Shown one piece after another: positions 8,643 to 41,860 of a DNA stretch of 64,000 nt (the stretch's first letter is position 1; every line of letters starts with the position of its first letter). The stretch spans positions 5,678 through 69,677 of IMG/VR virus record IMGVR_UViG_3300031949_000024. One strand, 5' to 3'. The notes under the pieces were generated by a model. It saw only the letters and a program-made list of their open reading frames with translations, was not told the origin of the DNA and did not search any database. The stretch comes from a virus. Lineage: Duplodnaviria; Caudoviricetes. The translations under genes were made by a program, and so were the position numbers.

Positions 8643-9503
8643 GTGCACTGGTCGGGCCGGTTCGCCGACGAGGTGACAGCCTCGCGTAGCCAACTCACCC
8701 GCGCGCGGGCGCTGCTCGAGCAGGTCCCGCGTAACCACCCCGGCCACCCGGACCAGAAGTCCCACGGACGCAAGGGCGGCACGAAAGCCGACGCGCAGAC
8801 CGCCGACCTGCCGCGGGTCGAAAACCCGGAAGACCGGCGGGCACAGGCCATGGGCACCAACCCCGGCTATCTCGGACCGTACACCGGCCCAGTCACCCCG
8901 AAGATCAAACGGGACGGCGGCGCCAGCTACGCCGAGAACTGCAGCCGGGTCGTCATCGCATATGAGATGCGCCGACGCGGCATCGACGTGACCGCCGGTG
9001 CAGGCTCTCCTGTCGGCGACACGATCGCCGCCTACGTGCACACGTTCCGGCAGGATGGAAAGTATCCGCTCCGGCTGGCGGAGGATCTGTCCCGCGACAT
9101 GTCGGTGCGGCAGGTCGCCACCGAGGTGGAGTCCTGGCCGCACGGGGCGCGGGGCATTGTCACCATTCAGGGCCACACCCTCAGCGTCGAACGGGACACA
9201 AAAACGGGCAAGGCCGTTTTCGTCGATGCGCAGACGGCGAAGAAGAAAAGTCCAATTTTGACCCGGGCACAGTTGGAGGCCCGGATGAAGTCGCGCGGCG
9301 CCCCGACCGACAAGTGGACGGCTGTGGCCCGCGTGGACGATCTTGACCTGTCTGACCATGGCCTGCGCTATGTCGAATCGCCGAGGCTGAGCCTCGCCGA
9401 CGGGCAGGTCGGGAAGACGTCGTTCCCGCAGGACCCGGACAGTCCGACGTTCTCGAGCTTTGAGCAGATAGCGGCCCTGCCCCCGGACGACAGTTACCCG
9501 TAG
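8643..9503 (+). CDS. Tagged effector 2: papain-fold toxin (Tox-PL-like) with NHPGHPDQKSHGRKG tag
   Basis: Catalytic-type motifs ENCSRV (Cys), GHTLSV (His), FVDAQT (Asp/Gln). Start reassigned to GTG 8643 because 8462-8638 is a separate gene. Confidence 0.75.
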   Translation: MHWSGRFADEVTASRSQLTRARALLEQVPRNHPGHPDQKSHGRKGGTKADAQTADLPRVENPEDRRAQAMGTNPGYLGPYTGPVTPKIKRDGGASYAENCSRVVIAYEMRRRGIDVTAGAGSPVGDTIAAYVHTFRQDGKYPLRLAEDLSRDMSVRQVATEVESWPHGARGIVTIQGHTLSVERDTKTGKAVFVDAQTAKKKSPILTRAQLEARMKSRGAPTDKWTAVARVDDLDLSDHGLRYVESPRLSLADGQVGKTSFPQDPDSPTFSSFEQIAALPPDDSYP

Positions 9504-9512
9504 GGGGCTGGG

Positions 9513-10445
9513 ATGGACTTCGACGCTGCCCGCGACGTGGTACGCCGCCGCCTCAACGACCTGTATGCCGGCGAGCGCGAACATCCGGCCGTGTTGCCGT
9601 ACGGGTTTGACACCGGCGGCTCGTGGGCGCCGATGGTCGACTGGCGTGGTGTGACCGGCGTGTACGTCTATCTGGTCGACAAACAGTCGGGTGGGTTGAC
9701 GCCGGTCAGCTTCCCGGAGTTTGTTGACCTGCCCGACCCGTCCCGGGCCGGGGAATGGCCCAACGCCGGGCCGGCGGCGGCTGTTGGAGTAGCCGTGCGC
9801 TGCTGGCAGGGCCGGATGGCCGACGACGTGGCCGGCACGAGAGCCATGGTGGGGCGGGCGCAGGTGCTGCTGGCGCAGACGTATCACCGTGATGCCGATG
9901 GCCAGTTCGCCTCGGGCAACGGCGGCGGGGCCGCCGACGGTTCGGACGGTGAAGGGGAAGGCGGCTCGCTCGATGAGGGCGAGGGTGAATACGGATACGG
10001 CACGGCACCCGATGGTTCTTCCTATTCGGAGTTTGACGTTGACGAGGCCGGCAATCCCCGATTCTCCAGTGAGTACCGGGCGAAGTACGGCCCGATCAAC
10101 AGCGATAGTGCCATCGGGGCCGGGCTGACATTCGTGGCCCCCGAGAAGGGCAAGTTGCACATCGCAGATGATGCGCTGGGCGCCAAACAGCGTCAGGTAG
10201 TGCAGGAGTTCACGAACGCCGAGGCCCGCGATCTGGCCGATGGCATCTACTCCGTCTACTCCGGAGAGTCGGCTTCGGTGGCCACGAAGTCGGGCGTGAA
10301 GGTGGCCCCTGCTGGCCCCCACCCAACGCAAGACGGGGTCAATGTCACGTGGAGCAACGGACGCCGGAGCACCTTTGACGGTGAGGCCGGAAACGACGAG
10401 GCCTTCGAGCTTCAGGAGTCGCTGCTGAATGCAAGCGGGACTTAG
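9513..10445 (+). CDS. Imm35/YrhB-like immunity domain fused to tagged effector 3 (TYHRDADGQFASG plus unknown domain)
   Basis: N-terminal ~80 aa (FDAARDVV...GSW...YLVDKQSG) resembles immunity proteins that neighbour papain-fold toxins. Tag at 9879-9917. Confidence 0.6.
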   Translation: MDFDAARDVVRRRLNDLYAGEREHPAVLPYGFDTGGSWAPMVDWRGVTGVYVYLVDKQSGGLTPVSFPEFVDLPDPSRAGEWPNAGPAAAVGVAVRCWQGRMADDVAGTRAMVGRAQVLLAQTYHRDADGQFASGNGGGAADGSDGEGEGGSLDEGEGEYGYGTAPDGSSYSEFDVDEAGNPRFSSEYRAKYGPINSDSAIGAGLTFVAPEKGKLHIADDALGAKQRQVVQEFTNAEARDLADGIYSVYSGESASVATKSGVKVAPAGPHPTQDGVNVTWSNGRRSTFDGEAGNDEAFELQESLLNASGT

Positions 10446-10453
10446 GGGGGCTG

Positions 10454-11854
10454 ATGCGTTCCCTGCTCGCCCCCCTGTTCAACAAGGCCCCTGCCTATGT
10501 CGGCGCCCAGGCCGGTACTGGCCTGTTCTCCCGGCTGATGGGCCGCAACGACGCCGCCGCCCAGATGGCCGCCATGGGCAGTGTCGGCACCCTGTTCAAC
10601 ATCGTGTCCACCACCTCGCAGGCTGTGGCCGAGGTGCAGTGGAAGCTTTGGCGTAAAGCCAAGTCGGGCAAGACGGAGGACCGCACCGAGGTCACCTCCC
10701 ACGCCGCCTTGGACATTTGGAACAAACCCAACAAGTTCATGACCGGCCAAGAACTGCGGGAGTCGGTGCAGCAGCATATCGACCTGACCGGTGAGGGTTG
10801 GTGCTACGTCGGCCGCAACGACCGGGCCCGTAGCCTTCCGCTGGAACTGTGGCCGATCCGCCCTGACCGGATCGCCCCGGTCCCGTCGGTGACCGACTTT
10901 ATCCAGGGCTACATCTACACCACGCCCGACGGGCAGGCGGTGCCGTGGGAGACCGACTCGGTCCTGATGCTGCGCATGCCCAACCCTTTGGACCCGTACC
11001 GCGGTATGGGGCCGGTGCAGTCGATCCTCACCGAGCTCGACTCGTCGAAGTACAGCGCCGAGTGGAACCGCAACTTCTTCCTCAACAGCGCGGAGCCGGG
11101 CGGCATCATCGAAGTCCCGAACCGGTTGGACGACGGCGCCTGGCGGGAGATGGTCACCCGTTGGCGCGAACAGCACCAAGGGGTGGCCAACGCGCACCGG
11201 GTGGCGGTCATCGAGCAGGGCAAGTGGGTCAACCGGACCTTCAGCATGCGGGACATGCAGTTTGTGCAGTTGCGGACGGTGGCGAAGGAAACCATCCGGG
11301 AGGCGTTCGGGTTCCCCAAGTTCGCCGCCGGCGAGGTTGAAGACGTCAACAGGGCATCAGCGGACGCGTCGGCGGTGTGGTTCGCGAAGCGGCTGACCGT
11401 GCCACGGCTGCAACGGTGGAAGGGCATGGCCAACAACGATTTTCTGCCCCTGTTCGGCGGGGATCCCAATCTCGAGTTCGACTTCGAGTCTCCCGTCAGC
11501 GAGGACGAGGAGGCCGAGAACGCCGAACGCGGCAGCAAGGCGACCGCGGCGAAGACGTACATTGACGCCGGGTTCACCGCCGAGTCGGTGGTGGAAGCCC
11601 TGGACCTGCCCGACGCGTTGGTGTGGGAGAAGCCCGAACCGCCCGCCCCGCCGCCCCCCCCGCCGGGTGCTCCGGCCGGTCCGGCTGTGCCTGGCGAAGA
11701 CCAGCCGCCCGACGTTCCGGCCAAGGTTCCGGCCGCCGACGATGCGGTGGCCAACCTGACCCGTGCGGTGCTGATGTTGGCGGAGGAGCGGGCCGGGCAC
11801 CGCGATGATGACCGGTCGCCTGGTGGCCGCACGTTTCGCGACTACTGGGGCTGA
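10454..11854 (+). CDS. Portal protein (HK97 family)
   Basis: HIDLTGEGW, LWPIRPDRI, YRGMGPVQ, FFLNSAEPGG, N..RVAVIEQG...F..LR, AFGFP motifs. Confidence 0.93.
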   Translation: MRSLLAPLFNKAPAYVGAQAGTGLFSRLMGRNDAAAQMAAMGSVGTLFNIVSTTSQAVAEVQWKLWRKAKSGKTEDRTEVTSHAALDIWNKPNKFMTGQELRESVQQHIDLTGEGWCYVGRNDRARSLPLELWPIRPDRIAPVPSVTDFIQGYIYTTPDGQAVPWETDSVLMLRMPNPLDPYRGMGPVQSILTELDSSKYSAEWNRNFFLNSAEPGGIIEVPNRLDDGAWREMVTRWREQHQGVANAHRVAVIEQGKWVNRTFSMRDMQFVQLRTVAKETIREAFGFPKFAAGEVEDVNRASADASAVWFAKRLTVPRLQRWKGMANNDFLPLFGGDPNLEFDFESPVSEDEEAENAERGSKATAAKTYIDAGFTAESVVEALDLPDALVWEKPEPPAPPPPPPGAPAGPAVPGEDQPPDVPAKVPAADDAVANLTRAVLMLAEERAGHRDDDRSPGGRTFRDYWG

Positions 11855-12542
11855 CAACCGCAGCTACAAGCGTGACAAGGACGGCAAGTTTTCGTCAGGC
11901 GGCAGTTTCGAAAGCCGGGTCGCCGGCGCCGCCGCCGGAGAAGGGGCTCTGCGTGCGGCTCCGTTGAATCGGGATACCGAGGATCATCTGACCGGCGACT
12001 TCCCCGGGTTTGATGACTTTGAAGGTACGGGAGTGCCCGGCCATGTCATCGGCAACAACATCGCGCACTACGGCGACAACGGCCACGCCAGCGTGAACGG
12101 CGTGCTTCGGAGCGGTGGCGATCCAATGCACCCTCCTGAGTCGCTACCTGGTGTGCTTCACTACTCCGCAAAGTCTGTCACGGATCAGGTGACCAGCCTT
12201 GACGCAGCTATGTCACGGTCGCAGCTAACCGCAGACGTCGTTGTCCACCGTGGCGTTGGTGACCCCGCCAAAGTCTTCGGCGCCACATCCGACCTGACGG
12301 GCCTTCGGTTCCGCGATCACGGGTATGCATCAACGACGACCTCCGGCGCGGCCAGCGGTGAATTCACTGGGAACCGAACGGGCGTCCAGATGAGGATCCT
12401 TGTGCCGAAGGGTACTGGGGCAATCAGCTCTTTTGGCCTTGACCGAACTGAGTTATTGCTTGACCGCGATCTGAGTTTCGTTGTACACCGCGACTATGAC
12501 GTGGGCGGGATTCGTACCTTGGATGTCGAGGTCGTTCCGTGA
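11805..12542 (+). CDS. Tagged effector 4: VIP2-like ADP-ribosyltransferase
   Basis: VVHRG (Arg), GYASTT (STS motif), MRILVPKGT, RTELLLDR (catalytic Glu). Tag NRSYKRDKDGKFSSG at 11856-11900. Confidence 0.85.
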   Translation: MMTGRLVAARFATTGADNRSYKRDKDGKFSSGGSFESRVAGAAAGEGALRAAPLNRDTEDHLTGDFPGFDDFEGTGVPGHVIGNNIAHYGDNGHASVNGVLRSGGDPMHPPESLPGVLHYSAKSVTDQVTSLDAAMSRSQLTADVVVHRGVGDPAKVFGATSDLTGLRFRDHGYASTTTSGAASGEFTGNRTGVQMRILVPKGTGAISSFGLDRTELLLDRDLSFVVHRDYDVGGIRTLDVEVVP

Positions 12543-13423
12543 CTTTCGCTGATCGGCTTATCGACGCGGGAGACTTTCCCGTTGAGATACTTGCCAAGTC
12601 CGTTGACGACGGCGGCGATGTCCACCACCTGGAGAACCGCACCCACGGCCTGCCGACGAACCTCGCCCCCACCGACATCGACCTGTCGAAGGTGCAACGG
12701 GACTGGGAACGCCAGTTGGACCAGCTGCTCAAGCAGTGGTTCACCGTCACCGAACACCAACGCGACCAGATTTTGGACAAGGTCCGGGCCGCCATCAACA
12801 ACAACGACCTGGCCGCCCTGGCCGCGCTCAACGTGTCGTCGGCCGAGCAGGCCAACATCCTCACCGCCGCTATGACGCAGATGGCACTGAATGCTGCGCA
12901 GCACGTCGTGGACGAGGCCGCGCGGCAGGGTGTGCGCACCGACCCGGTGGCCACCGACACGCACCGGTTTGCCACTACGGCGGTTGCGTTGGCCGCATTG
13001 TTGACGGCGGCGCTGACGAATTCGGCTGGCCGGGAGGCGCTGCGTCGTTGGTCGCCGAGCACCAGCGGCGACGACGTGACCCGTGCGGTGGAGGGGCATC
13101 TCGCGTCGCTGTCGACGTCGTTTGTGGAAGCGCATCTTGGTGGGGCGTTGACGGCGGCGCAGAACACGGGCCGGTTGGAGACGATGCTCGCGGCGCCGAC
13201 GGCAGCAATATATTCGTCAGAAATGATGGATAAACGGACATGTAACCCATGCCGGGTCGTTAACGGCAAGTGGATCGGCAACTCAGATGACCCGGACATC
13301 GTCGCGAAGATCGAAGCCGTCTACCCGAACGGCGGCTACGTGAACTGCGAGGGCGGGGTGCGCTGCCGTGGCACAACCGTCTATGTCTGGCGCCCCGAGC
13401 AGGTCCCTGCAGCAGGCGCCTAG
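12539..13423 (+). CDS. MuF-like head morphogenesis protein with a short N-terminal extension (possible ART immunity peptide)
   Basis: AAQNTGR, SSEMMDKRTCNPC, GGVRCRGT are MuF-type C-terminal motifs; position between portal and protease. Confidence 0.8.
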   Translation: MTFADRLIDAGDFPVEILAKSVDDGGDVHHLENRTHGLPTNLAPTDIDLSKVQRDWERQLDQLLKQWFTVTEHQRDQILDKVRAAINNNDLAALAALNVSSAEQANILTAAMTQMALNAAQHVVDEAARQGVRTDPVATDTHRFATTAVALAALLTAALTNSAGREALRRWSPSTSGDDVTRAVEGHLASLSTSFVEAHLGGALTAAQNTGRLETMLAAPTAAIYSSEMMDKRTCNPCRVVNGKWIGNSDDPDIVAKIEAVYPNGGYVNCEGGVRCRGTTVYVWRPEQVPAAGA

Positions 13424-14984
13424 CTTCTTCGGCCTGGTCGCCACCGCCCGGGCACGGCTGGACATCCTGGACCGTCAGTACAAGCGCGACAAGGACGGGC
13501 GTTTCGGGTCCGGCGGCGGCATGCACCCGGCCATCGCCGCCTGCTCGACCACCAGCGAAGTCGAAGCTGTCCTGTCGACCGAGCTGTACGACGTCACCGG
13601 CCGGCACGTCACCGTCCACCTGACCGGCCTCGGCGTCGAGGTGGCACGGGTACACGCCGAAGGCGTCCTGCGGGCCATGAAACAGTTCCCCGACACCGAC
13701 CTGCAAACCATCAGCACGTTCGGCCCGGGCGGCCAACACAGCAGCGATGTCGTCGCCGGCACAGACCACAGCGGTTCCTACGCCGTCACCACGCACCGGC
13801 CCGGCACCCGTGGTTCCGACATCTACTTCAACACCCGCTACGGCGACATCGACACGTTGACCGACATGGTGCGTCAGAACGACGCCGTCGGTTGGCTGTC
13901 CGGACAGTCGGGCGACCTGTCCCGGATGGCCTCGCATGAAGTCGGGCACGCCTGGGGCAACACACTCAAGCCCGGCGCCGCCCGACAGGCCGTCGGAGAA
14001 CTGGCCATTGACCGGGGCCTCGTCGATGCGGTCGTGGTGCGAGAAGTGTCCGGCTACGCCAGGAAAGACCTCGGGGAACTGATCGCCGAGTCGTTCAGTG
14101 ACGTCGTGTCCCGCGGCGACGGCGCGTCGCAGCTCAGCAAGGATGTTGTCGACACCGTCGGCAGCCAGTTCGAGGCCGGCCTGCAGTACCCGAACAACCA
14201 GTCCCGCTTCTTCCACCTGTTGGCGGCGGCCCGGAACCGCACCTACAAGCGGGACGCCGACGGACGGTTCGGGTCCGGTGACGGCGGGCCGCGCGGCATC
14301 CGTGACACGTTCGCGCAGGCCAAGACGATCACTTCGCTGGAGTTGGCCGCCGAGGGCGAGCTCGGCTCGATCCTGGGCCAGCGCGTCGCGGTGAAGCTCG
14401 CAGGTCTGGAGATGGACGCGGCCCGGGCGCACGTGGAAGGCATCGCCCGGTCGGCCGAGCTGTACCCGGGCACCGATCTGATCAGCGTCACTTCGTACGG
14501 GCCGCGCGGCCAGGTGTCGGACATTCCCGGGCAGCAGCCCGGCGTGCACGACAAGGTCTGGGGTGTCACCTCCTCGGTGGCTGGCCGGCCCGGGGCGGAC
14601 ATCTACCTGAACACGCGCATCGACGCGCCGAAGATGCGGCGGGTCACCACCAAGGCGGTCGCCGAGGGTGTGGTGGACGGCGACATGTCCGACATCACGT
14701 GGACCGGGTCGCACGAGATGGGCCACGCTGCGGCGTCGATGATGCGCCGCGGCGACCCGCAGCAAGGTGCGGTCAGGATCGCCACCGAGACGGCTGGCGG
14801 TAGCGTCGAGCACGTCTACAACGAGCTGCGCACGACGGTTTCGCGGTATGCGCTTACTCCCGGCGGCGATGAACTGATCGGGGAGGCTACCGCCCAGGTG
14901 GCATCATTGGGTTCGGCGGCGTCGCCGATATCGAAGGCTGTCGTCAAGGGCATGCAGGACAACTGGGACGAGTGGAGCATCTGA
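13368..14984 (+). CDS. Tagged effector 5: tandem duplicated zincin-like metallopeptidase (start uncertain, 13368 or 13383)
   Basis: Two repeats, each with a YKRDxDGRFGSG tag, HExGH (SHEVGH, SHEMGH) and a downstream ELI[AG]E. Confidence 0.75.
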   Translation: MAQPSMSGAPSRSLQQAPSFFGLVATARARLDILDRQYKRDKDGRFGSGGGMHPAIAACSTTSEVEAVLSTELYDVTGRHVTVHLTGLGVEVARVHAEGVLRAMKQFPDTDLQTISTFGPGGQHSSDVVAGTDHSGSYAVTTHRPGTRGSDIYFNTRYGDIDTLTDMVRQNDAVGWLSGQSGDLSRMASHEVGHAWGNTLKPGAARQAVGELAIDRGLVDAVVVREVSGYARKDLGELIAESFSDVVSRGDGASQLSKDVVDTVGSQFEAGLQYPNNQSRFFHLLAAARNRTYKRDADGRFGSGDGGPRGIRDTFAQAKTITSLELAAEGELGSILGQRVAVKLAGLEMDAARAHVEGIARSAELYPGTDLISVTSYGPRGQVSDIPGQQPGVHDKVWGVTSSVAGRPGADIYLNTRIDAPKMRRVTTKAVAEGVVDGDMSDITWTGSHEMGHAAASMMRRGDPQQGAVRIATETAGGSVEHVYNELRTTVSRYALTPGGDELIGEATAQVASLGSAASPISKAVVKGMQDNWDEWSI

Positions 14985-15256
14985 TGGTCAGCCGCCCGAT
15001 ACCGCAGTGCCTGACCTGCGCCCACTGGCAGTCGCCGTTGGGCCGCACCGACGAGGATGCCCGTGGTGAGAAGCCGATCCAGGTGTGCAAGGCGTTCCCG
15101 TTGCCGGCCGGTATCCCCGACGACATTTGGTGGAACCGCGTCGATCACCGCACCCCGCATGCCGGCGATCAGGGCATCGTGTGGGAGGCCGACGACGACG
15201 TGCGCAACGGCGGCAAGATGAAGTTTCCCGACTGGGCCATGAACACCGCCACCTGA
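14984..15256 (+). CDS. Putative immunity protein (CxxCxH...CxAFPxGIP...DH..P..GDxG)
   Basis: QCLTCAHW, CKAFPLPAGIPDDIW, DHRTPHAGDQGIVWE; a pattern I recall following phage head-associated toxins. Confidence 0.6.
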   Translation: MVSRPIPQCLTCAHWQSPLGRTDEDARGEKPIQVCKAFPLPAGIPDDIWWNRVDHRTPHAGDQGIVWEADDDVRNGGKMKFPDWAMNTAT

Positions 15257-37331: not shown

Positions 37332-37952
37332 TCACACCTTCGGTGTATCCGCCATCAACGCCCGCCCGTTCAGTCCTTCCGAGGACGGCCCCTGCGTCTG
37401 CGGTCCGCTGAGACCACCTCGCGGCCCCAGCTTCACCCGGCGCGTCACGTCATGGAGCACCACCGGCTCTGGGTCCGACGCCTGTACCGTCACGGGTCCA
37501 CCCAGCGTCTCCACCACCACCTCACTCTTCTCCACCACCGCTTCGACCTTCTCGATGAGGGAGCGCAGCTTCGCGGCCAACTCGACCAACGAAACCGACG
37601 CCACCACGATCAGACCATCTACGGTGACAGGAATGAGGTAGGGCGAACTACCAGTCTCGCCGTACCGGCCGACAACGCCGACCATGTGCCAGTAGGACAC
37701 CCACGCCGCGATACCCGCAATCGTCGCCGTAGCAACGATCCGGACAACCGCCAGAAGCGGTCGCGTGATCGGGATCCGTGAGACCAGCTCAATCGTCAAC
37801 AGCAGCGCCACAGGCGGCCATGCCGAGATCGTCCGGCTGATCAGGTTCGGTTCTGCATGGAGGATGTTCGCGGCCACGGAAGCTGCGATGCCGAGGAGAA
37901 GAACCATTCTCACGGCCCACCGAAGAAGCTTGAGTTCGCCGATGTTGGACAT
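37332..37952 (-). CDS. DUF2637-like membrane protein
   Basis: AASVAANI, SAWPPVALLL, AAWVSYWHM, PYLIPVTVDGL. Confidence 0.75.
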   Translation of the reverse strand: MSNIGELKLLRWAVRMVLLLGIAASVAANILHAEPNLISRTISAWPPVALLLTIELVSRIPITRPLLAVVRIVATATIAGIAAWVSYWHMVGVVGRYGETGSSPYLIPVTVDGLIVVASVSLVELAAKLRSLIEKVEAVVEKSEVVVETLGGPVTVQASDPEPVVLHDVTRRVKLGPRGGLSGPQTQGPSSEGLNGRALMADTPKV

Positions 37953-38053
37953 CGGCACCCCCTTTCAGGGGTCGCCCCCGCCCGTCGCGGGAGGTGTGTG
38001 CGAGCCGGCGCATCGAAGCTGCCGTCCGTGTTCTCTGGCTCGCCGTTCAGATT

Positions 38054-38120
38054 TGGTGTCCCCGACCGGGATCGAACCGGTCGCTGCGCCTGACGGGGGG
38101 CGCGGCACGCCTTGCGGGAC
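38054..38120 (-). ncRNA. tRNA-like element (intact T-arm, acceptor 3' strand and CCA; D-arm absent or degenerate)
   Basis: Minus strand reads ACCGG-TTCGATC-CCGGT-CGGGGAC-A-CCA; an upstream GCGCC/GGCGC stem has a non-canonical 8-nt loop. Confidence 0.45.
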
Positions 38121-38365
38121 AGGTGCCAGATGCGCTCTGGGCGGGCGGCGCCACGATTCCCGCGGCTGCTCCGTTCTCCTGATTCCCCGGAACCGGTAGA
38201 CACCTCTCTCGGCGTGCCGTCCCCCGCCCTTACGCTGGCGGCGCGGCCACCGTTTTACCCTCCGGCGGTCCCTGGGCGTCGATTGAGGCTCGACGGCTGG
38301 GCCTTGGCCTGACGGCCACGGCAAGGCGTAAAGGCGATTCGCCTTACGCCGCCCCACCGAAGAGG

Positions 38366-38518
38366 TCAGGACTCAAGCTCGGCACCGCACTCCGGGCATT
38401 CCGTGTGGTGGTCGCGCATGCGCGGGTGGTCACACTCGATGTCCTCGTTGTCGTCGCCGTACTCGCTCTCGTCGGCGAATTCGAGCGTCTCGAGCTCGTC
38501 GTCCTTCACGTTGGCCAC
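38366..38518 (-). CDS. Small acidic Zn-ribbon protein
   Basis: GGAAGGGAGG SD; CDH...CPECG. Confidence 0.6.
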   Translation of the reverse strand: MANVKDDELETLEFADESEYGDDNEDIECDHPRMRDHHTECPECGAELES

Positions 38519-38607
38519 GATGGCCTCCCTTCCTGGCCTGACGGCCATGGCGGCGGCTCGGACCTTTCGGGCCGAGCCCCACCGGAGGTGTCAGGGACTG
38601 GTGTGGG

Positions 38608-38820
38608 TCAGAGGCCCAGTGCTTCCGCTTGGCGGTAGGCGTTCCGGATGTGCTCCGCCTGCTCGTCGGTCAGTTCCGCGTACGGCGCGATGCCGCCCGA
38701 CTGAACTCCCGTTTCGACGTCGAGGTCGTTGGCGTAGCTGGTGACTACCTCCATCGCCTCGGCGTGCTTCGGGCCGCCGCCGACTCCACACAGTTCCTCT
38801 GCCAGTTCGATGACCTGCAT
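38608..38820 (-). CDS. Small hypothetical protein
   Basis: GAGAGGAG SD; MQVIELAEELCG. Confidence 0.6.
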   Translation of the reverse strand: MQVIELAEELCGVGGGPKHAEAMEVVTSYANDLDVETGVQSGGIAPYAELTDEQAEHIRNAYRQAEALGL

Positions 38821-38900
38821 GTGTTGCTCCTCTCGTTGTGGTGCTGGCCTGACGGCCACGGCGTGTGCTGGGCTTGCTGGTTCCAGCACCGCCGAAGGTG

Positions 38901-39086
38901 TCAGGACTGCTCTGCTCGTCGCCGCTTCGACTCCTCGTAGAGCGGGGTCCAAACCTTGTCCTGGACCAGTTCCCGCTGTCCCTTCGGAAGCTTGTCGACG
39001 ATCTCGCCGATGAACTGAAGCGCGTCGGACAGGCCGGCGAGCCGCCCCATCGCGTAGTCCTTCTCGAACCTCTCTGCGGCGTCCAC
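38901..39086 (-). CDS. Small helical hypothetical protein
   Basis: GGAGGGAGAGG SD. Confidence 0.6.
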   Translation of the reverse strand: MDAAERFEKDYAMGRLAGLSDALQFIGEIVDKLPKGQRELVQDKVWTPLYEESKRRRAEQS

Positions 39087-39450
39087 TGTGGACCACCACC
39101 TCTCCCTCCGACGTGCCGTCCCTTGTGGACGGATGAGTGAGCGGCAGGGGTTCGACGCCCTGCCGCCCTTCGATCACCGCGGGAGTGCGGTGTCGCGCTG
39201 CCCCGGGGCGGTTCCTTGCTCGGCGTCTGCGTCTCGTGCGTCCGTGTCAGCTAGTGGCGCGAGTCGCTCGGGGCTGTCCCCGGCGTTGTCCGCGCATGCC
39301 TGACCTCGTTCTCGTGATCGCTTGGCTTTCGTCACCACACGCTGGTGGCTTGGTTCCCGACGCGGTTCCTGCTGCCCTTTCGGGTCCCGGTGTCTCCGCG
39401 GTGGTCTGTGCTTCTGGAGTTTTGAGGTCTTCGTTTCTTGCTCTGTCTCT

Positions 39451-39475
39451 AGTATAGCAGCGCCAGCGCTGCTAT
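39451..39475 (-). promoter_or_regulatory. Leftward -10 box TATACT overlapped by a perfect palindrome ATAGCAGCGC-CA-GCGCTGCTAT
   Basis: TATACT on the minus strand at 39456-39451; palindrome at 39454-39475. Confidence 0.65.
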
Positions 39476-39527
39476 CGCCACCCAGGAAGGAGGAAAGGCA
39501 GCGCTAGGGCTGTCGGGTTCCTGACAG

Positions 39528-39719
39528 TTACAAGGAGGAGGACCGGGCCGGATGCGCCTCGCGGTACGCCAGCACCGTGTCCCGACGCCACCACGGCGTC
39601 CGCAGGTCATAGTGACCGTCCGGCTTGAACCGCTCATTACGGGCCACCACGGCACGCCAACTAGCCGGCGCAATACCCAGCAGGGCCGCGGCCTCAGCAA
39701 CAGTCAGACGGTCTTCCAC
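39528..39719 (-). CDS. Small HTH (AlpA/excisionase-like) protein
   Basis: LTVAEAAALLGIAPASW...TPWWRRDTV. Confidence 0.7.
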   Translation of the reverse strand: MEDRLTVAEAAALLGIAPASWRAVVARNERFKPDGHYDLRTPWWRRDTVLAYREAHPARSSSL

Positions 39720-40412: not shown

Positions 40413-40595
40413 GACGGCTCCCCTCGGTGCTGAGACCTGAAGGTGCGGCGACCGGGCGCCCCTCGCCGGATGGAGCCGCGAGTTTCCCGGCCGCCGCCGA
40501 ACTAGCTTCGCATACTAAGTACTATGGTCACAATGAGAGTGACAGGAATGGGGAGTATCCGCAGGCCAAGGCCGCGCCTGGCAAGGTCCAGGACT

Positions 40596-40832
40596 GTGCC
40601 CGCCGTGCCTCTCTACCGCCGTATCGCCGACGCCTACCGTGCGCGGATCGTGGCCGGCGTGTACGTCCCGGGTGAGCAGTTGCCTGGTCAGAAGGCCATC
40701 GCCGCAGAGTGGGACTGCTCGCTGCAGCCGGTGAAGTGGGCGCTGCGGGAACTCGAGTTGGCCGGGCTGATCGAGTCGCGGCAGGGTATCGGCGCGTTCG
40801 TCAAAACGGACGCTGGATCCGCCGACACGTAG
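40596..40832 (+). CDS. GntR-family winged-HTH regulator (DNA-binding domain only)
   Basis: PLYRRIAD...I..G.Y.PG..LP....A....S...V..AL..L...GLIESRQGIGAFV. Confidence 0.88.
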   Translation: MPAVPLYRRIADAYRARIVAGVYVPGEQLPGQKAIAAEWDCSLQPVKWALRELELAGLIESRQGIGAFVKTDAGSADT

Positions 40833-40890: not shown

Positions 40891-41754
40891 TTACGCCGCT
40901 TCGGCGGCGGGTCTGGGCCGGATAGACGCCGGCCCAGGCTCCACCACTCGGGTGGGCTCATTCAGGTGGGGCAGCCGCCCGACCGCGGCGGTCAGGTCTT
41001 CGTCGTCGAACTCCAGGTAGATCTGGGTGGTGGCGACCGACGAGTGGCCGAGCAGGCGGGCAATCGTCGCCGTGTCGACGCCCATCCGCCGGAGTCGGGT
41101 CGCGAACGCCCCACGAAACCAGTGGATCGTCAACCTCGGCTCACCCATGCGGTCGAATGCCGTCGCGCAGGTTCGGGTCACCCAGCTTGCGGTCACGCTC
41201 TCGCCGTTGTGCGTGACGAGCGGCCCGTCCGTGCAGTCTCCGATCTCCTCCCATACGTCGTCGAGGAGCGGCACGGCCCGGCCTACCTCACCCTTGCCGA
41301 GGATCAGGACCCGCTCCTCGTTGAAGTCCTGGCGGTCGGCGCGGGCGATCTCACCGGCCCTCATGCCCGCGCCTGCGGCGAGGATGACGCATCGGCGCAC
41401 CGGGTGGCCGAGTTCGGCCAGGCAGCGGCGCAACTGGTCGTCGCTCGCTACGCGCGGGAGACGTTTTTTTGGGCGTGGGCGCCTCAGTTCGGCGCTGGGG
41501 TCCCAGTCCATCCAGCCGTCTCGCACGACCTGACGGTAGAAGCCGATCATGTGGCACCAGTAGGTTTCGCGGCTCTTGGTGTTGATGCCCTCTCGGCCGA
41601 GCCAGGTTCGGAGTTCTCGTGTCGACGCCTCGTCGACGCCCTTGGGTAGTTCGCGGTCGAGGGCCAGGAGCAGTCGTTCCCGATCCCGCACCGTTGCGGC
41701 TGACGCCCCTTCAGCCCGGAGGGCTGCGAGGTGGTCGTAGATGAGTTCTGACAT
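40891..41754 (-). CDS. int: Tyrosine integrase/recombinase lacking an arm-binding domain
   Basis: Catalytic set GMRAGE (R), GKG (K), HWFR (HxxR), LGH, TQIY; C-terminus AAEAA. Confidence 0.92.
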   Translation of the reverse strand: MSELIYDHLAALRAEGASAATVRDRERLLLALDRELPKGVDEASTRELRTWLGREGINTKSRETYWCHMIGFYRQVVRDGWMDWDPSAELRRPRPKKRLPRVASDDQLRRCLAELGHPVRRCVILAAGAGMRAGEIARADRQDFNEERVLILGKGEVGRAVPLLDDVWEEIGDCTDGPLVTHNGESVTASWVTRTCATAFDRMGEPRLTIHWFRGAFATRLRRMGVDTATIARLLGHSSVATTQIYLEFDDEDLTAAVGRLPHLNEPTRVVEPGPASIRPRPAAEAA

Positions 41755-41860
41755 GCCTGGATGCAACTCCCAATCGGCAACGGCAAGTGACAACTTTTCA
41801 GTCCGTAACAGGAACGACACAGTCCGTCATCGTTGGATGATCGGCTGACCTGAATGTGGC

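What the first reader, a model, noticed from the sequence alone, without database searches (positions are those of the whole stretch)
38305..38908. Three conserved box-plus-hairpin elements punctuate a leftward small-gene operon
Seen: each intergenic unit has TGGCCTGACGGCCAYGGC (itself a TGGCC-N4-GGCCA palindrome), a sequence-variable but pairing-conserved hairpin, and a distal GTCAGG complementary to CCTGAC in the box. Two mutually exclusive folds are therefore possible. The stops of two genes lie in the distal box, and SDs follow units 2 and 3. Inference: an undescribed cis-RNA motif (RNase III-like processing as in the T7 early region, or a protein-gated translational or antitermination switch), or attC-like single-strand recombination sites defining gene cassettes near a tyrosine recombinase.
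Basis: partly seen in the sequence, partly recalled or inferred. Interest (0 to 1): 0.75.

Follow-up and report, generated by a model that had tools for sequence, protein, structure and literature searches.

The report
Conserved hairpins punctuating phage early genes
Three near-identical 65-nt hairpin elements, each starting on the stop codon of a small early gene of an uncultured actinobacterial phage, belong to an undescribed conserved family that probably marks RNA processing or 3'-end points and also serves as the seam at which related phages swap small accessory genes.

Summary
The exact 18-nt box occurs three times (38305, 38534, 38845) and nowhere else in the 69.7-kb phage genome. On the coding (minus) strand each unit folds into one long imperfect hairpin: (U)CCUGAC, a short mismatched helix, CGG, a variable apical stem, then GCCGUGGCCGUCAGGCC.

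I found 49 distinct copies in about 35 viral and soil metagenome contigs, none in cultured phages, and no Rfam match. Pairing is supported: 91.8% of cells pair against 81% in shuffles, nine pairs show double changes, and a variant class has CCCGAG/CUCGGG in the basal stem.

In 30 of 38 assessable main units the UGA inside the basal stem is the upstream gene's in-frame stop. Units share the genes' strand, usually just upstream of a DUF2637 gene. The small genes around them differ greatly between phages, and homology blocks break inside the units.

Best reading (0.42, mechanism untested): a sense-strand RNA punctuation hairpin read by conserved host machinery, most likely RNase III, comparable to T7 early sites or mycobacterial TRIT. 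Its conserved sequence would secondarily provide recombination seams, as PeSLs do in T4-like phages.

Integron attC, canonical terminator and REP/RAYT membership tests were not met. Invariant unpaired C residues leave a second fold (GGCC-N4-GGCC) possible.

The parts
38842..38907 (-). Its basal stem holds the stop codon of gene A. The 3' box is at 38845-38862.
   Evidence: 71-74 bits; -34.5 kcal/mol, z -3.8.
38531..38597 (-). Unit 2. Its apical hairpin is identical to those in L018, L196 and L243. The 3' box is at 38534-38551 (GCCATGG form).
38302..38372 (-). Its basal stem holds the stop codon of gene C. The 3' box is at 38305-38322. A non-coding stretch follows.
   Evidence: With flank the minimum-energy fold prefers the extended mini-hairpin.
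38901..39086 (-). Gene A, 61 aa, no family. Its stop is the TGA inside unit 1. Homologues (F7) precede units in L149 and L243.
38608..38820 (-). Gene B, 70 aa, no family. Its stop lies 13 nt upstream of unit 2.
38366..38518 (-). Gene C, about 50 aa with a CxxC...CxxC tail. It has a GTG start 5 nt after GGGAGG. Its stop is the TGA inside unit 3. A homologue (F18) sits between two units in L216.
39087..39475 (-). Purine-rich non-coding leader of the leftward operon. It is conserved in L019.
37959..38301 (-). Non-coding stretch after unit 3, ending in a tRNA 3'-end-like piece (38054-38082). It is probably the attP region or a structured RNA. In L017, L018 and L025 the equivalent stretch is bracketed by a main unit and a variant unit.
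37332..37958 (-). DUF2637 membrane protein gene. This conserved gene lies just downstream of the last unit in about 23 related loci.
40891..41820 (-). Tyrosine integrase (Xer-like), 2 kb upstream on the same strand. The same synteny holds in G007 and G008.
40524..40832 (+). Short GntR-type winged-helix protein between the integrase and the operon. It is conserved in L022, L024 and L025.

Best explanation
The units are a family of 57-75-nt hairpins that act in the sense-strand early transcript as punctuation between small accessory genes.

Each unit begins on or just after the stop codon of the preceding gene and ends 15-45 nt before the next ribosome-binding site. The basal half is a nearly continuous helix of about 12 pairs with two fixed mismatches. 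The apical stem is free to vary.

Most likely the folded RNA is read by conserved host machinery. The best candidate is host RNase III, cutting as it does at T7 early intercistronic sites or, as proposed, at mycobacterial TRIT elements. The polycistronic transcript would then be divided into gene-sized mRNAs, each ending in a protective hairpin.

The units are almost identical in sequence between otherwise dissimilar phages. They therefore also serve as seams at which small genes are exchanged by recombination, as PeSL motifs do in T4-like phages.

Shown here:
- anatomy and conservation of the units;
- pairing covariation;
- the register with the stop codon;
- orientation and synteny;
- hypervariable neighbouring genes and seams inside the units.

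Inferred:
- that the structure acts in RNA;
- that the exchange is homologous rather than site-specific.
For: - Three exact boxes and no others in the genome.
- 49 distinct units in about 35 contigs.
- Pairing: 91.8% of cells pair against 81.0 +/- 0.6% in shuffles. 93 cells have changes on both sides against 30. Slid controls give 27-42%.
- The basal stem CCUGAC/GUCAGG is replaced by CCCGAG/CUCGGG in 8 variant units.
- In 30 of 38 assessable main units the UGA in the basal stem is the in-frame stop of a high-GC3 ORF. 8 of 10 variant units, which lack a UGA, follow non-coding DNA.
- Units are always co-oriented with the flanking genes and packed between a stop and the next SD. There is no room for a promoter, so downstream genes must be expressed from the same transcript.
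- The box is 100% conserved while the neighbouring integrase is 32-35% identical and the DUF2637 protein 24-34% identical. This points to a conserved host reader.
- The phage has no RNase III gene of its own.
- Precedents: TRIT is a sequence-conserved hairpin overlapping stop codons, with an RNase III-like dual cleavage pattern (PMC3152330, PMC13714241).
- Seams: units are often the only DNA homology between loci. 19% of left block ends fall in units, which make up 3.9% of the length. The same apical hairpin follows three unrelated genes. The window carries an extra 'gene C plus unit' lying exactly between two 3' boxes relative to L018 and L243.
Against: - No transcript data of any kind were available.
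- Sense and antisense strands fold equally well, so wobble pairs do not show that the structure acts in RNA rather than in single-stranded DNA.
- RNase III has little sequence specificity. It does not explain why the 3' strand is much more conserved than the 5' strand, nor why C63, C64, C73 and C74 are invariant though unpaired in the long hairpin.
- All basal-stem covariation may stem from a single evolutionary event.
- The host is unknown. The model found nothing in three Mycobacterium-group genomes (weak test).
Confidence: 0.42

Rival explanations
1. The unit is a two-state RNA switch gated by translation or by a protein. A ribosome terminating on the UGA in the basal stem melts the lower helix. 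The invariant 3' box then refolds into the GGCC-N4-GGCC mini-hairpin, which may be a protein-binding site. Expression or processing of the next gene would thus be coupled to translation of the previous one.
For: - The stop codon sits in the basal stem in 30 of 38 main units.
- C63, C64, C73 and C74 are invariant, unpaired in the long hairpin but paired in the mini-hairpin.
- The mini-hairpin scores -9.1 kcal/mol, forms when the 5' arm is masked, and appears in the minimum-energy fold of units 2 and 3 with flank.
- L021 carries a matched C/G insertion that lengthens the mini-hairpin.
- The variant units keep GGCC-N4-GGCC with a different N4.
Against: - The four G-C pairs of the mini-hairpin never vary, so there is no covariation for it.
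- Its outer U-A pair is not kept: the base after GGCC is A, G, C or U.
- In L024 a G-to-A change keeps the long-hairpin pair and breaks the mini-hairpin pair.
- The downstream SD is free in both states in most units.
Confidence: 0.16
2. The units are factor-independent terminators or attenuators without a U-tract. They would impose graded polarity on the early operon, with read-through when the terminating ribosome covers the 5' arm.
For: - A stable G+C-rich hairpin lies directly after each gene.
- From memory: U-less terminators were reported in the early region of Streptomyces phage phiC31 (Ingham et al. 1995). The reference is listed in PMC3993855, but the paper itself could not be read.
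- TRIT was first proposed to be a terminator (PMC3152330).
Against: - No U-tract follows any unit, and the terminator scan finds none.
- There is no space for a promoter before the next gene, and variant units sit about 50 nt upstream of the DUF2637 start, so efficient termination would silence conserved genes.
- Mycobacterial RNA polymerase needs a U-tract in vitro (PMC3993855).
- TRITs overlap few mapped termination sites (bioRxiv 10.1101/2022.06.01.494293).
- Simple terminators need no 18-nt invariant sequence.
Confidence: 0.12
3. The element acts at the DNA level in recombination or mobility. It could be an attC-like folded single-strand site used by the nearby tyrosine recombinase, giving a phage-borne cassette array. 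Or it could be a small REP/MITE-like palindromic element that spreads on its own.
For: - Gene content around the units is cassette-like and variable, with an indel bounded exactly by two boxes.
- Identical hairpins occur in unrelated contexts (34 unit pairs).
- A tyrosine integrase lies 2-3 kb upstream on the same strand in three records.
- The fold is equally good on either strand.
Against: - The integrase scores 63 bits against a 265-bit cut-off for integron integrases and resembles Xer/phage integrases.
- Integrases are only 32-35% identical while the site is invariant.
- The hairpin is not linked to the upstream gene, and joints occur on both sides, unlike attC.
- There is no Y1 transposase and no target duplication.
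- There are only 1-3 copies per 45-100-kb genome, always in the same neighbourhood and orientation.
- The stop-codon register and the tight packing before an SD point to expression.
Confidence: 0.1
4. The unit is a tRNA-like or 4.5S-like substrate of host RNase P: a long helix followed by a single-stranded G/CC that pairs with the enzyme's P15 loop. This would give tRNA-style punctuation of the operon.
For: - G71 and the two following C residues are invariant, and the next base is free. This matches the RCC part of the RCCA contact (established knowledge).
- A tRNA 3'-end-like piece lies in the same transcript.
Against: - Cleavage at the 5' base of the helix would remove the upstream gene's stop codon in 30 of 38 units.
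- There is no T-loop-like apical loop.
- ARAGORN and Rfam see nothing tRNA-like in the units.
Confidence: 0.07
5. The box is a double-stranded DNA operator bound by a phage repressor, for example the nearby GntR-type protein. It would block elongation, like the stoperators of mycobacteriophage L5.
For: - The TGGCC-N4-GGCCA palindrome is present.
- The sites are intergenic and in one orientation.
- A GntR-type winged-helix gene lies nearby.
Against: - Selection for pairing with the distant 5' arm and for the apical stem has no place in an operator.
- There is no isolated box anywhere else, including the promoter region.
- The outer T/A of the palindrome is lost in variant units.
- The half-site spacing changes in L021.
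Confidence: 0.04

Closest known systems
RNase III processing sites of the phage T7 early region (R0.3 to R1.3)
   Same: Intercistronic hairpins in a polycistronic early transcript. The lower stem and internal-loop region are conserved and the upper stem varies. Each lies just before the next gene's ribosome-binding site. (T7 properties are from established knowledge.)
   Different: There is no sequence relationship. Here the upstream stop codon lies inside the lower stem, the 3' strand is invariant over 17 nt across distant phages, and cleavage is untested.
TRIT (Tuberculosis Rho-independent terminator) elements of Mycobacterium
   Same: A hairpin conserved in both sequence and structure, positioned in a narrow register overlapping stop codons, with no U-tract. 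It is now thought to be cut by RNase III rather than to terminate transcription (PMC3152330, PMC13714241, bioRxiv 10.1101/2022.06.01.494293).
   Different: TRIT is a chromosomal, multi-copy (147 copies), largely bidirectional element. The units here are phage-borne, 1-3 per genome, in one orientation and one neighbourhood. My model found nothing in three Mycobacterium-group genomes.
PeSL (promoter-early stem-loop) motifs of T4-like phages
   Same: Short conserved intergenic stem-loop motifs flanking small, highly variable early genes. [quoted passage not shown]
   Different: PeSLs combine a terminator-like stem-loop with an early promoter. No promoter or U-tract is detectable here, and the hosts and sequences are unrelated.
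Integron attC sites
   Same: Imperfect palindromes with conserved ends and a variable centre at the 3' end of each small gene. Gene content is variable and a tyrosine recombinase lies nearby.
   Different: The core sequences differ. The integrase is not of the integron type. The hairpin is not cassette-specific, and joints lie on both sides of the unit.
REP/BIME and Correia-type intergenic palindromes
   Same: Repeated, sequence-conserved palindromic units just downstream of stop codons that shape mRNA 3' ends. Correia repeats are RNase III substrates (PMC13714241).
   Different: Those are chromosomal, present in tens to hundreds of copies, and tied to RAYT or transposition. No Y1 transposase is present here, and no enrichment of the box was found in five actinobacterial genomes.

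Membership tests
Integron attC / gene cassette array | Integron-type integrase (IntI) next to the array | tested here: not met
   The window integrase scores 63.2 bits on TIGR02249 (cut-off 265) and 46.7 bits on NF011946 (cut-off 435). Its best matches are XerC/XerA-like.
Integron attC / gene cassette array | Core sites R''/R' of the RYYYAAC / GTTRRRY type | tested here: not met
   The conserved ends are CCUGAC / GUCAGG, or CCCGAG / CUCGGG. The attC consensus is from established knowledge.
Integron attC / gene cassette array | Each attC belongs to the cassette of the gene upstream, with a single crossover point in R' | tested here: not met
   The same apical hairpin follows three unrelated genes. 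34 unit pairs share a hairpin with no flank homology, and joints are seen on both sides.
Integron attC / gene cassette array | Cassette content varies between relatives | tested here: met
Canonical intrinsic (Rho-independent) terminator | G+C-rich hairpin immediately followed by a U-tract | tested here: not met
   The hairpin is present, but no T-run follows any of the 49 units, and the scan finds no terminator in 37900-39600.
RNase III processing site (T7 early type) | About two turns of mostly double-stranded RNA with an internal loop, in an intercistronic position | tested here: met
   The helix has 20 modelled pairs plus fixed mismatches and lies between a stop and the next SD. This is a permissive criterion.
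RNase III processing site (T7 early type) | Cleavage by RNase III | not testable with these tools
   No transcript or enzyme data are available.
TRIT (Mycobacterium) | Sequence similarity to the TRIT consensus, with many chromosomal copies in the host | tested here: inconclusive
   The unit model finds nothing in three Mycobacterium-group genomes, but only 150 of about 9,000-15,000 candidates were scored. The TRIT consensus itself was not available as text.
TRIT (Mycobacterium) | Narrow register overlapping the stop codon | tested here: met
   30 of 38 main units have the stop inside the basal stem, and the rest have it 4-42 nt upstream.
PeSL (T4-like phages) | Stem-loop joined to an early promoter | tested here: not met
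   No sigma-70-type promoter was found in or after the units. The scan covers only that promoter type.
PeSL (T4-like phages) | Conserved motif at the boundaries of indels and replacements of small early genes | tested here: met
REP / RAYT system | Associated Y1 (RAYT) transposase and many dispersed copies | tested here: not met
   No PF01797 match in the phage. There are three clustered copies only.
Known Rfam RNA families | Match at the gathering score | tested here: not met
   No match at gathering thresholds in the window. The best sub-threshold hit over a unit is Ms_AS-8 on the opposite strand, 20 bits against a threshold of 48, E 0.43.

The most novel reading that the evidence does not exclude
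The units are portable expression adaptors with two folds. The upstream gene's stop codon is built into the base of the long hairpin, so each terminating ribosome melts it. The invariant 3' box then snaps into a GGCC-N4-GGCC mini-hairpin that a conserved host factor reads. Processing or translation of the next cassette would thereby depend on translation of the previous one. The same adaptor would let phages plug unrelated early genes, perhaps anti-defence genes, into one operon.
Probability: 0.13. Interest if true: 0.72.

Novelty: new variant of a known kind. Interest (0 to 1): 0.5.

Why it matters
If confirmed, this would be a new structured RNA family from uncultured actinobacterial phages with an unusual design: a stop codon embedded in the stem, an invariant 3' strand, and a free apical stem.

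It would extend the idea of RNase III-read, TRIT-like punctuation from mycobacterial chromosomes to phages. It would also be the first actinophage counterpart of the PeSL shuffling seams of T4-like phages.

The units mark a hypervariable block of tiny early genes next to a conserved DUF2637 gene. That layout resembles accessory or anti-defence gene islands, so the motif could serve as a search handle for such genes. The element is also a candidate insulating or processing part for operon design in high-G+C bacteria.

Tried and rejected
- **Anti-SD mimic** (CACCUCC in the 5' arm sequestering the next SD): rejected. The motif is not conserved (CUUC, CUAC and CCCC forms occur), and the changes keep a helix with a fixed mismatch.
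- **SECIS or read-through of the embedded UGA:** rejected. The frame after gene A's UGA is not that of gene B and runs into a stop.
- **tmRNA or tRNA for the neighbouring tRNA-like piece:** ARAGORN finds only one tRNA-Val elsewhere. No 5' acceptor strand is present.
- **Rfam:** nothing at gathering or E-value thresholds.
- **Cultured phages:** blastn with the 2.3-kb region and with unit 2 gives only noise.
- **Prophage or host copies:** Only chance hits were found in those 120.
- **Box frequency in hosts:** not enriched over the reversed control in five actinobacterial genomes.
- **Host tRNA search with the window's tRNA-like 25-mer:** no match in 401 sampled Actinomycetota.
- **Strand test by wobble pairs or energies:** uninformative.
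- **Locus search with the DUF2637 alignment:** too divergent to seed.
- **Ingham et al. 1995:** could not be read.
- **Pfam on ten cassette and neighbour proteins:** no families.

Full report
**Setting**

The window is bases 5678-69677 of a 69,677-b IMG/VR virus record rated complete, with about 67% G+C. Its large terminase is 55-59% identical to those of Brevibacterium and Arthrobacter phages, and also to one Microcystis phage record. Its integrase matches mycobacterial, Gordonia and Rhodococcus phage integrases at about 30%. It is therefore an uncultured temperate actinobacteriophage whose host is unknown.

The finding lies in a short leftward (minus-strand) block. From right to left the layout is:
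- a tyrosine integrase at 40891-41820 (-);
- a few plus-strand genes, including a GntR-type winged-helix protein at 40524-40832;
- a purine-rich non-coding leader of about 390 nt (39087-39475);
- gene A (38901-39086), unit 1, gene B (38608-38820), unit 2, gene C (38366-38518), unit 3;
- a 340-nt non-coding stretch ending in a tRNA 3'-end-like piece (38054-82);
- a DUF2637 membrane protein gene (37332-37958).

The 18-nt box is present three times exactly and nowhere else, even with three mismatches allowed. A covariance model run without filters finds only these three units in the window.

Read on the coding strand, each unit is (U)CCUGAC, five or six variable bases, CGG, a variable stem-loop, then GCCGUGGCCGUCAGGCC. 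Each folds as one long imperfect hairpin of -34 to -45 kcal/mol, z -3 to -7.

The stops of genes A and C are the UGA inside CCUGAC, and gene B stops 13 nt earlier. Units 1 and 2 are followed within 15-27 nt by an SD and a start codon.

**The family**

The exact box occurs in 13 IMG/VR contigs, nine of which hold complete units with different apical stems. More copies came from a model built on these (R1), relaxed pattern scans and one scan of metagenome contigs. Together they gave 49 distinct units in about 35 contigs, mostly from soil.

Each phage record has one to three units, always clustered and on one strand. None is found in cultured phages or in Rfam. None is found in the 120 loci returned by a truncated scan of bacterial genomes. 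Five actinobacterial genomes show no excess of the box over a reversed control.

**Structure**

Counts were made on the 49-sequence alignment A5.
- 91.8% of cells form standard pairs, against 81.0 +/- 0.6% in shuffles (0 of 500 reach the observed value).
- 93 cells carry changes on both sides, against 30.
- Sliding the partner by 1-3 columns drops pairing to 27-42%.
- The apical stem covaries heavily.

The basal stem is invariant in the 'main' class. A 'variant' class of 8 distinct units in A5 has CCCGAG/CUCGGG instead, which amounts to two compensatory changes. The same class turns the middle U.G into C-G and keeps the two mismatches.

This supports the long hairpin along its whole length. 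The caveat is that the basal-stem changes may reflect a single evolutionary event.

Folding energies of the sense and antisense strands do not differ. Pairing alone therefore cannot say whether the structure acts in RNA or in single-stranded DNA.

**Features that pairing does not explain**

The 3' strand is far more conserved than the 5' strand. Four C residues (columns 63, 64, 73, 74) are invariant although unpaired in the long hairpin.
- The mini-hairpin scores -9.1 kcal/mol.
- It forms when the 5' arm is masked, as under a terminating ribosome.
- It already appears in the minimum-energy fold of units 2 and 3 when flank is included.
- One unit (L021) has a matched C/G insertion that lengthens it.

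Its four G-C pairs never vary, so covariation evidence for it is lacking. The outer U-A pair is not kept.

**Relation to genes**

In 30 of 38 assessable main units the UGA in the basal stem is the in-frame stop of a high-GC3 ORF. In seven others the stop lies within about 40 nt of the unit start. Eight of ten variant units, which contain no UGA, follow non-coding DNA (the earlier count is).

This explains why the basal stem is frozen in main units and free to change in variants. It also means every terminating ribosome must open the lower helix.

Units are packed between a stop and the next SD. No sigma-70-type promoter or U-tract terminator is detectable. Variant units sit about 50 nt before the DUF2637 start codon. 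The units therefore cannot be efficient terminators if the conserved downstream genes are to be expressed.

**Neighbourhood and exchange**

A DUF2637 gene lies just downstream of the last unit in about 23 loci. An integrase lies 2-3 kb upstream on the same strand in the window, G007 and G008.

The small genes before and between units are mostly unique, with no Pfam family. Recurring families appear in different orders.

Evidence that the seams lie in the units:
- Between many phages the units are the only DNA-level homology in the region.
- The window differs from L018 and L243 by an extra 'gene C plus hairpin' lying exactly between two 3' boxes.
- 19% of left ends of homology blocks fall within units, which make up 3.9% of the sequence.
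- The apical hairpin of unit 2 is identical in four loci, where it follows three unrelated proteins.
- 34 unit pairs share a hairpin with no flank homology. 21 pairs share only the downstream side, with or without the hairpin.

Seams thus lie on both sides of the units.

**Mechanism**

The box is 100% conserved while the integrase is 32-35% identical and the DUF2637 protein 24-34% identical. This argues for a conserved host reader rather than a fast-evolving phage protein. The phage has no RNase III or Y1 transposase gene of its own.

The best fit is an RNA processing or 3'-end-forming hairpin, with these parallels:
- T7 early RNase III sites (established knowledge);
- mycobacterial TRIT, a sequence-conserved hairpin overlapping stop codons (PMC3152330) that rarely coincides with true termination sites (bioRxiv 10.1101/2022.06.01.494293) and shows an RNase III-like dual cleavage pattern (PMC13714241);
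- Correia repeats.

The recombination role is best seen as a consequence of the conserved sequence, as for PeSLs (PMC2839356, PMC4122927).

I give this reading 0.42. A translation- or protein-gated two-fold switch is the main rival at 0.16, because only it explains the invariant unpaired C residues. The other rivals are:
- U-less terminator: 0.12 (mycobacterial polymerase needs a U-tract, PMC3993855);
- DNA-level recombination or mobility: 0.10;
- RNase P-type punctuation: 0.07;
- double-stranded DNA operator: 0.04.

**Verdict**

This is a real, previously undescribed conserved structured element. Its kind is familiar: intercistronic punctuation hairpins that double as shuffling seams. Its design is distinctive. 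The function remains untested.

Noticed in passing
window 37959-38301 (-); L018:2934-3233; L025, L019, L017 equivalents: The non-coding stretch after the last main unit is 91% identical between the window and L018 over about 200 nt. The two then end in tRNA 3'-end-like pieces (T-arm, acceptor strand, CCA) of different sequence, which looks like attP cores for different host tRNAs. A small hairpin near its start shows two compensatory changes between the window (CGTCGA...TCGACG) and L019 (CGCTGA...TCAGCG). In L017, L018 and L025 the stretch is bracketed by a main unit and a variant unit. The window's 25-mer was not found in 401 sampled Actinomycetota genomes.
   Followed up: partly
window 40524-40832 (+): This is a short (102 aa) GntR-type winged-helix protein between the integrase and the leftward operon. 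Homologues are present in L022, L024 and L025. It is a candidate repressor of the switch region.
   Followed up: partly
window 39101-39416 (-): The purine-rich leader upstream of gene A is conserved in L019 (76-97% identity) with an insertion of about 500 nt there. No sigma-70-type promoter passes the scan, although a TATACT is visible.
   Followed up: partly
window 38860-38818 and 38549-38516 (-): The GTG/ATG inside the 3' box (GCC-GTG-GCC) is in frame with the start codons of genes B and C in the window. It is not in frame in L149, so this is probably coincidence.
   Followed up: partly
L059 and L090 (Stieleria tagensis contigs): A repeated planctomycete element, three copies per locus, contains the same 18-mer within a longer palindrome, CCGTGGCC-GTCA-GGCCACGG. 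It has no 5' arm or apical hairpin of the phage type. It is most likely an unrelated repeat caught by the pattern.
   Followed up: no
L021:2741-2797 (+): This is a degenerate unit-like hairpin. It keeps the CGGUGGGG...CGCCGUG middle part but lacks the basal stem, and lies upstream of two full units in the same phage.
   Followed up: no
window 37332-37958 (-) and about 23 related loci: The DUF2637 membrane protein gene is the constant neighbour downstream of the hypervariable small-gene block. This layout recalls variable accessory genes placed next to a conserved marker gene.
   Followed up: partly
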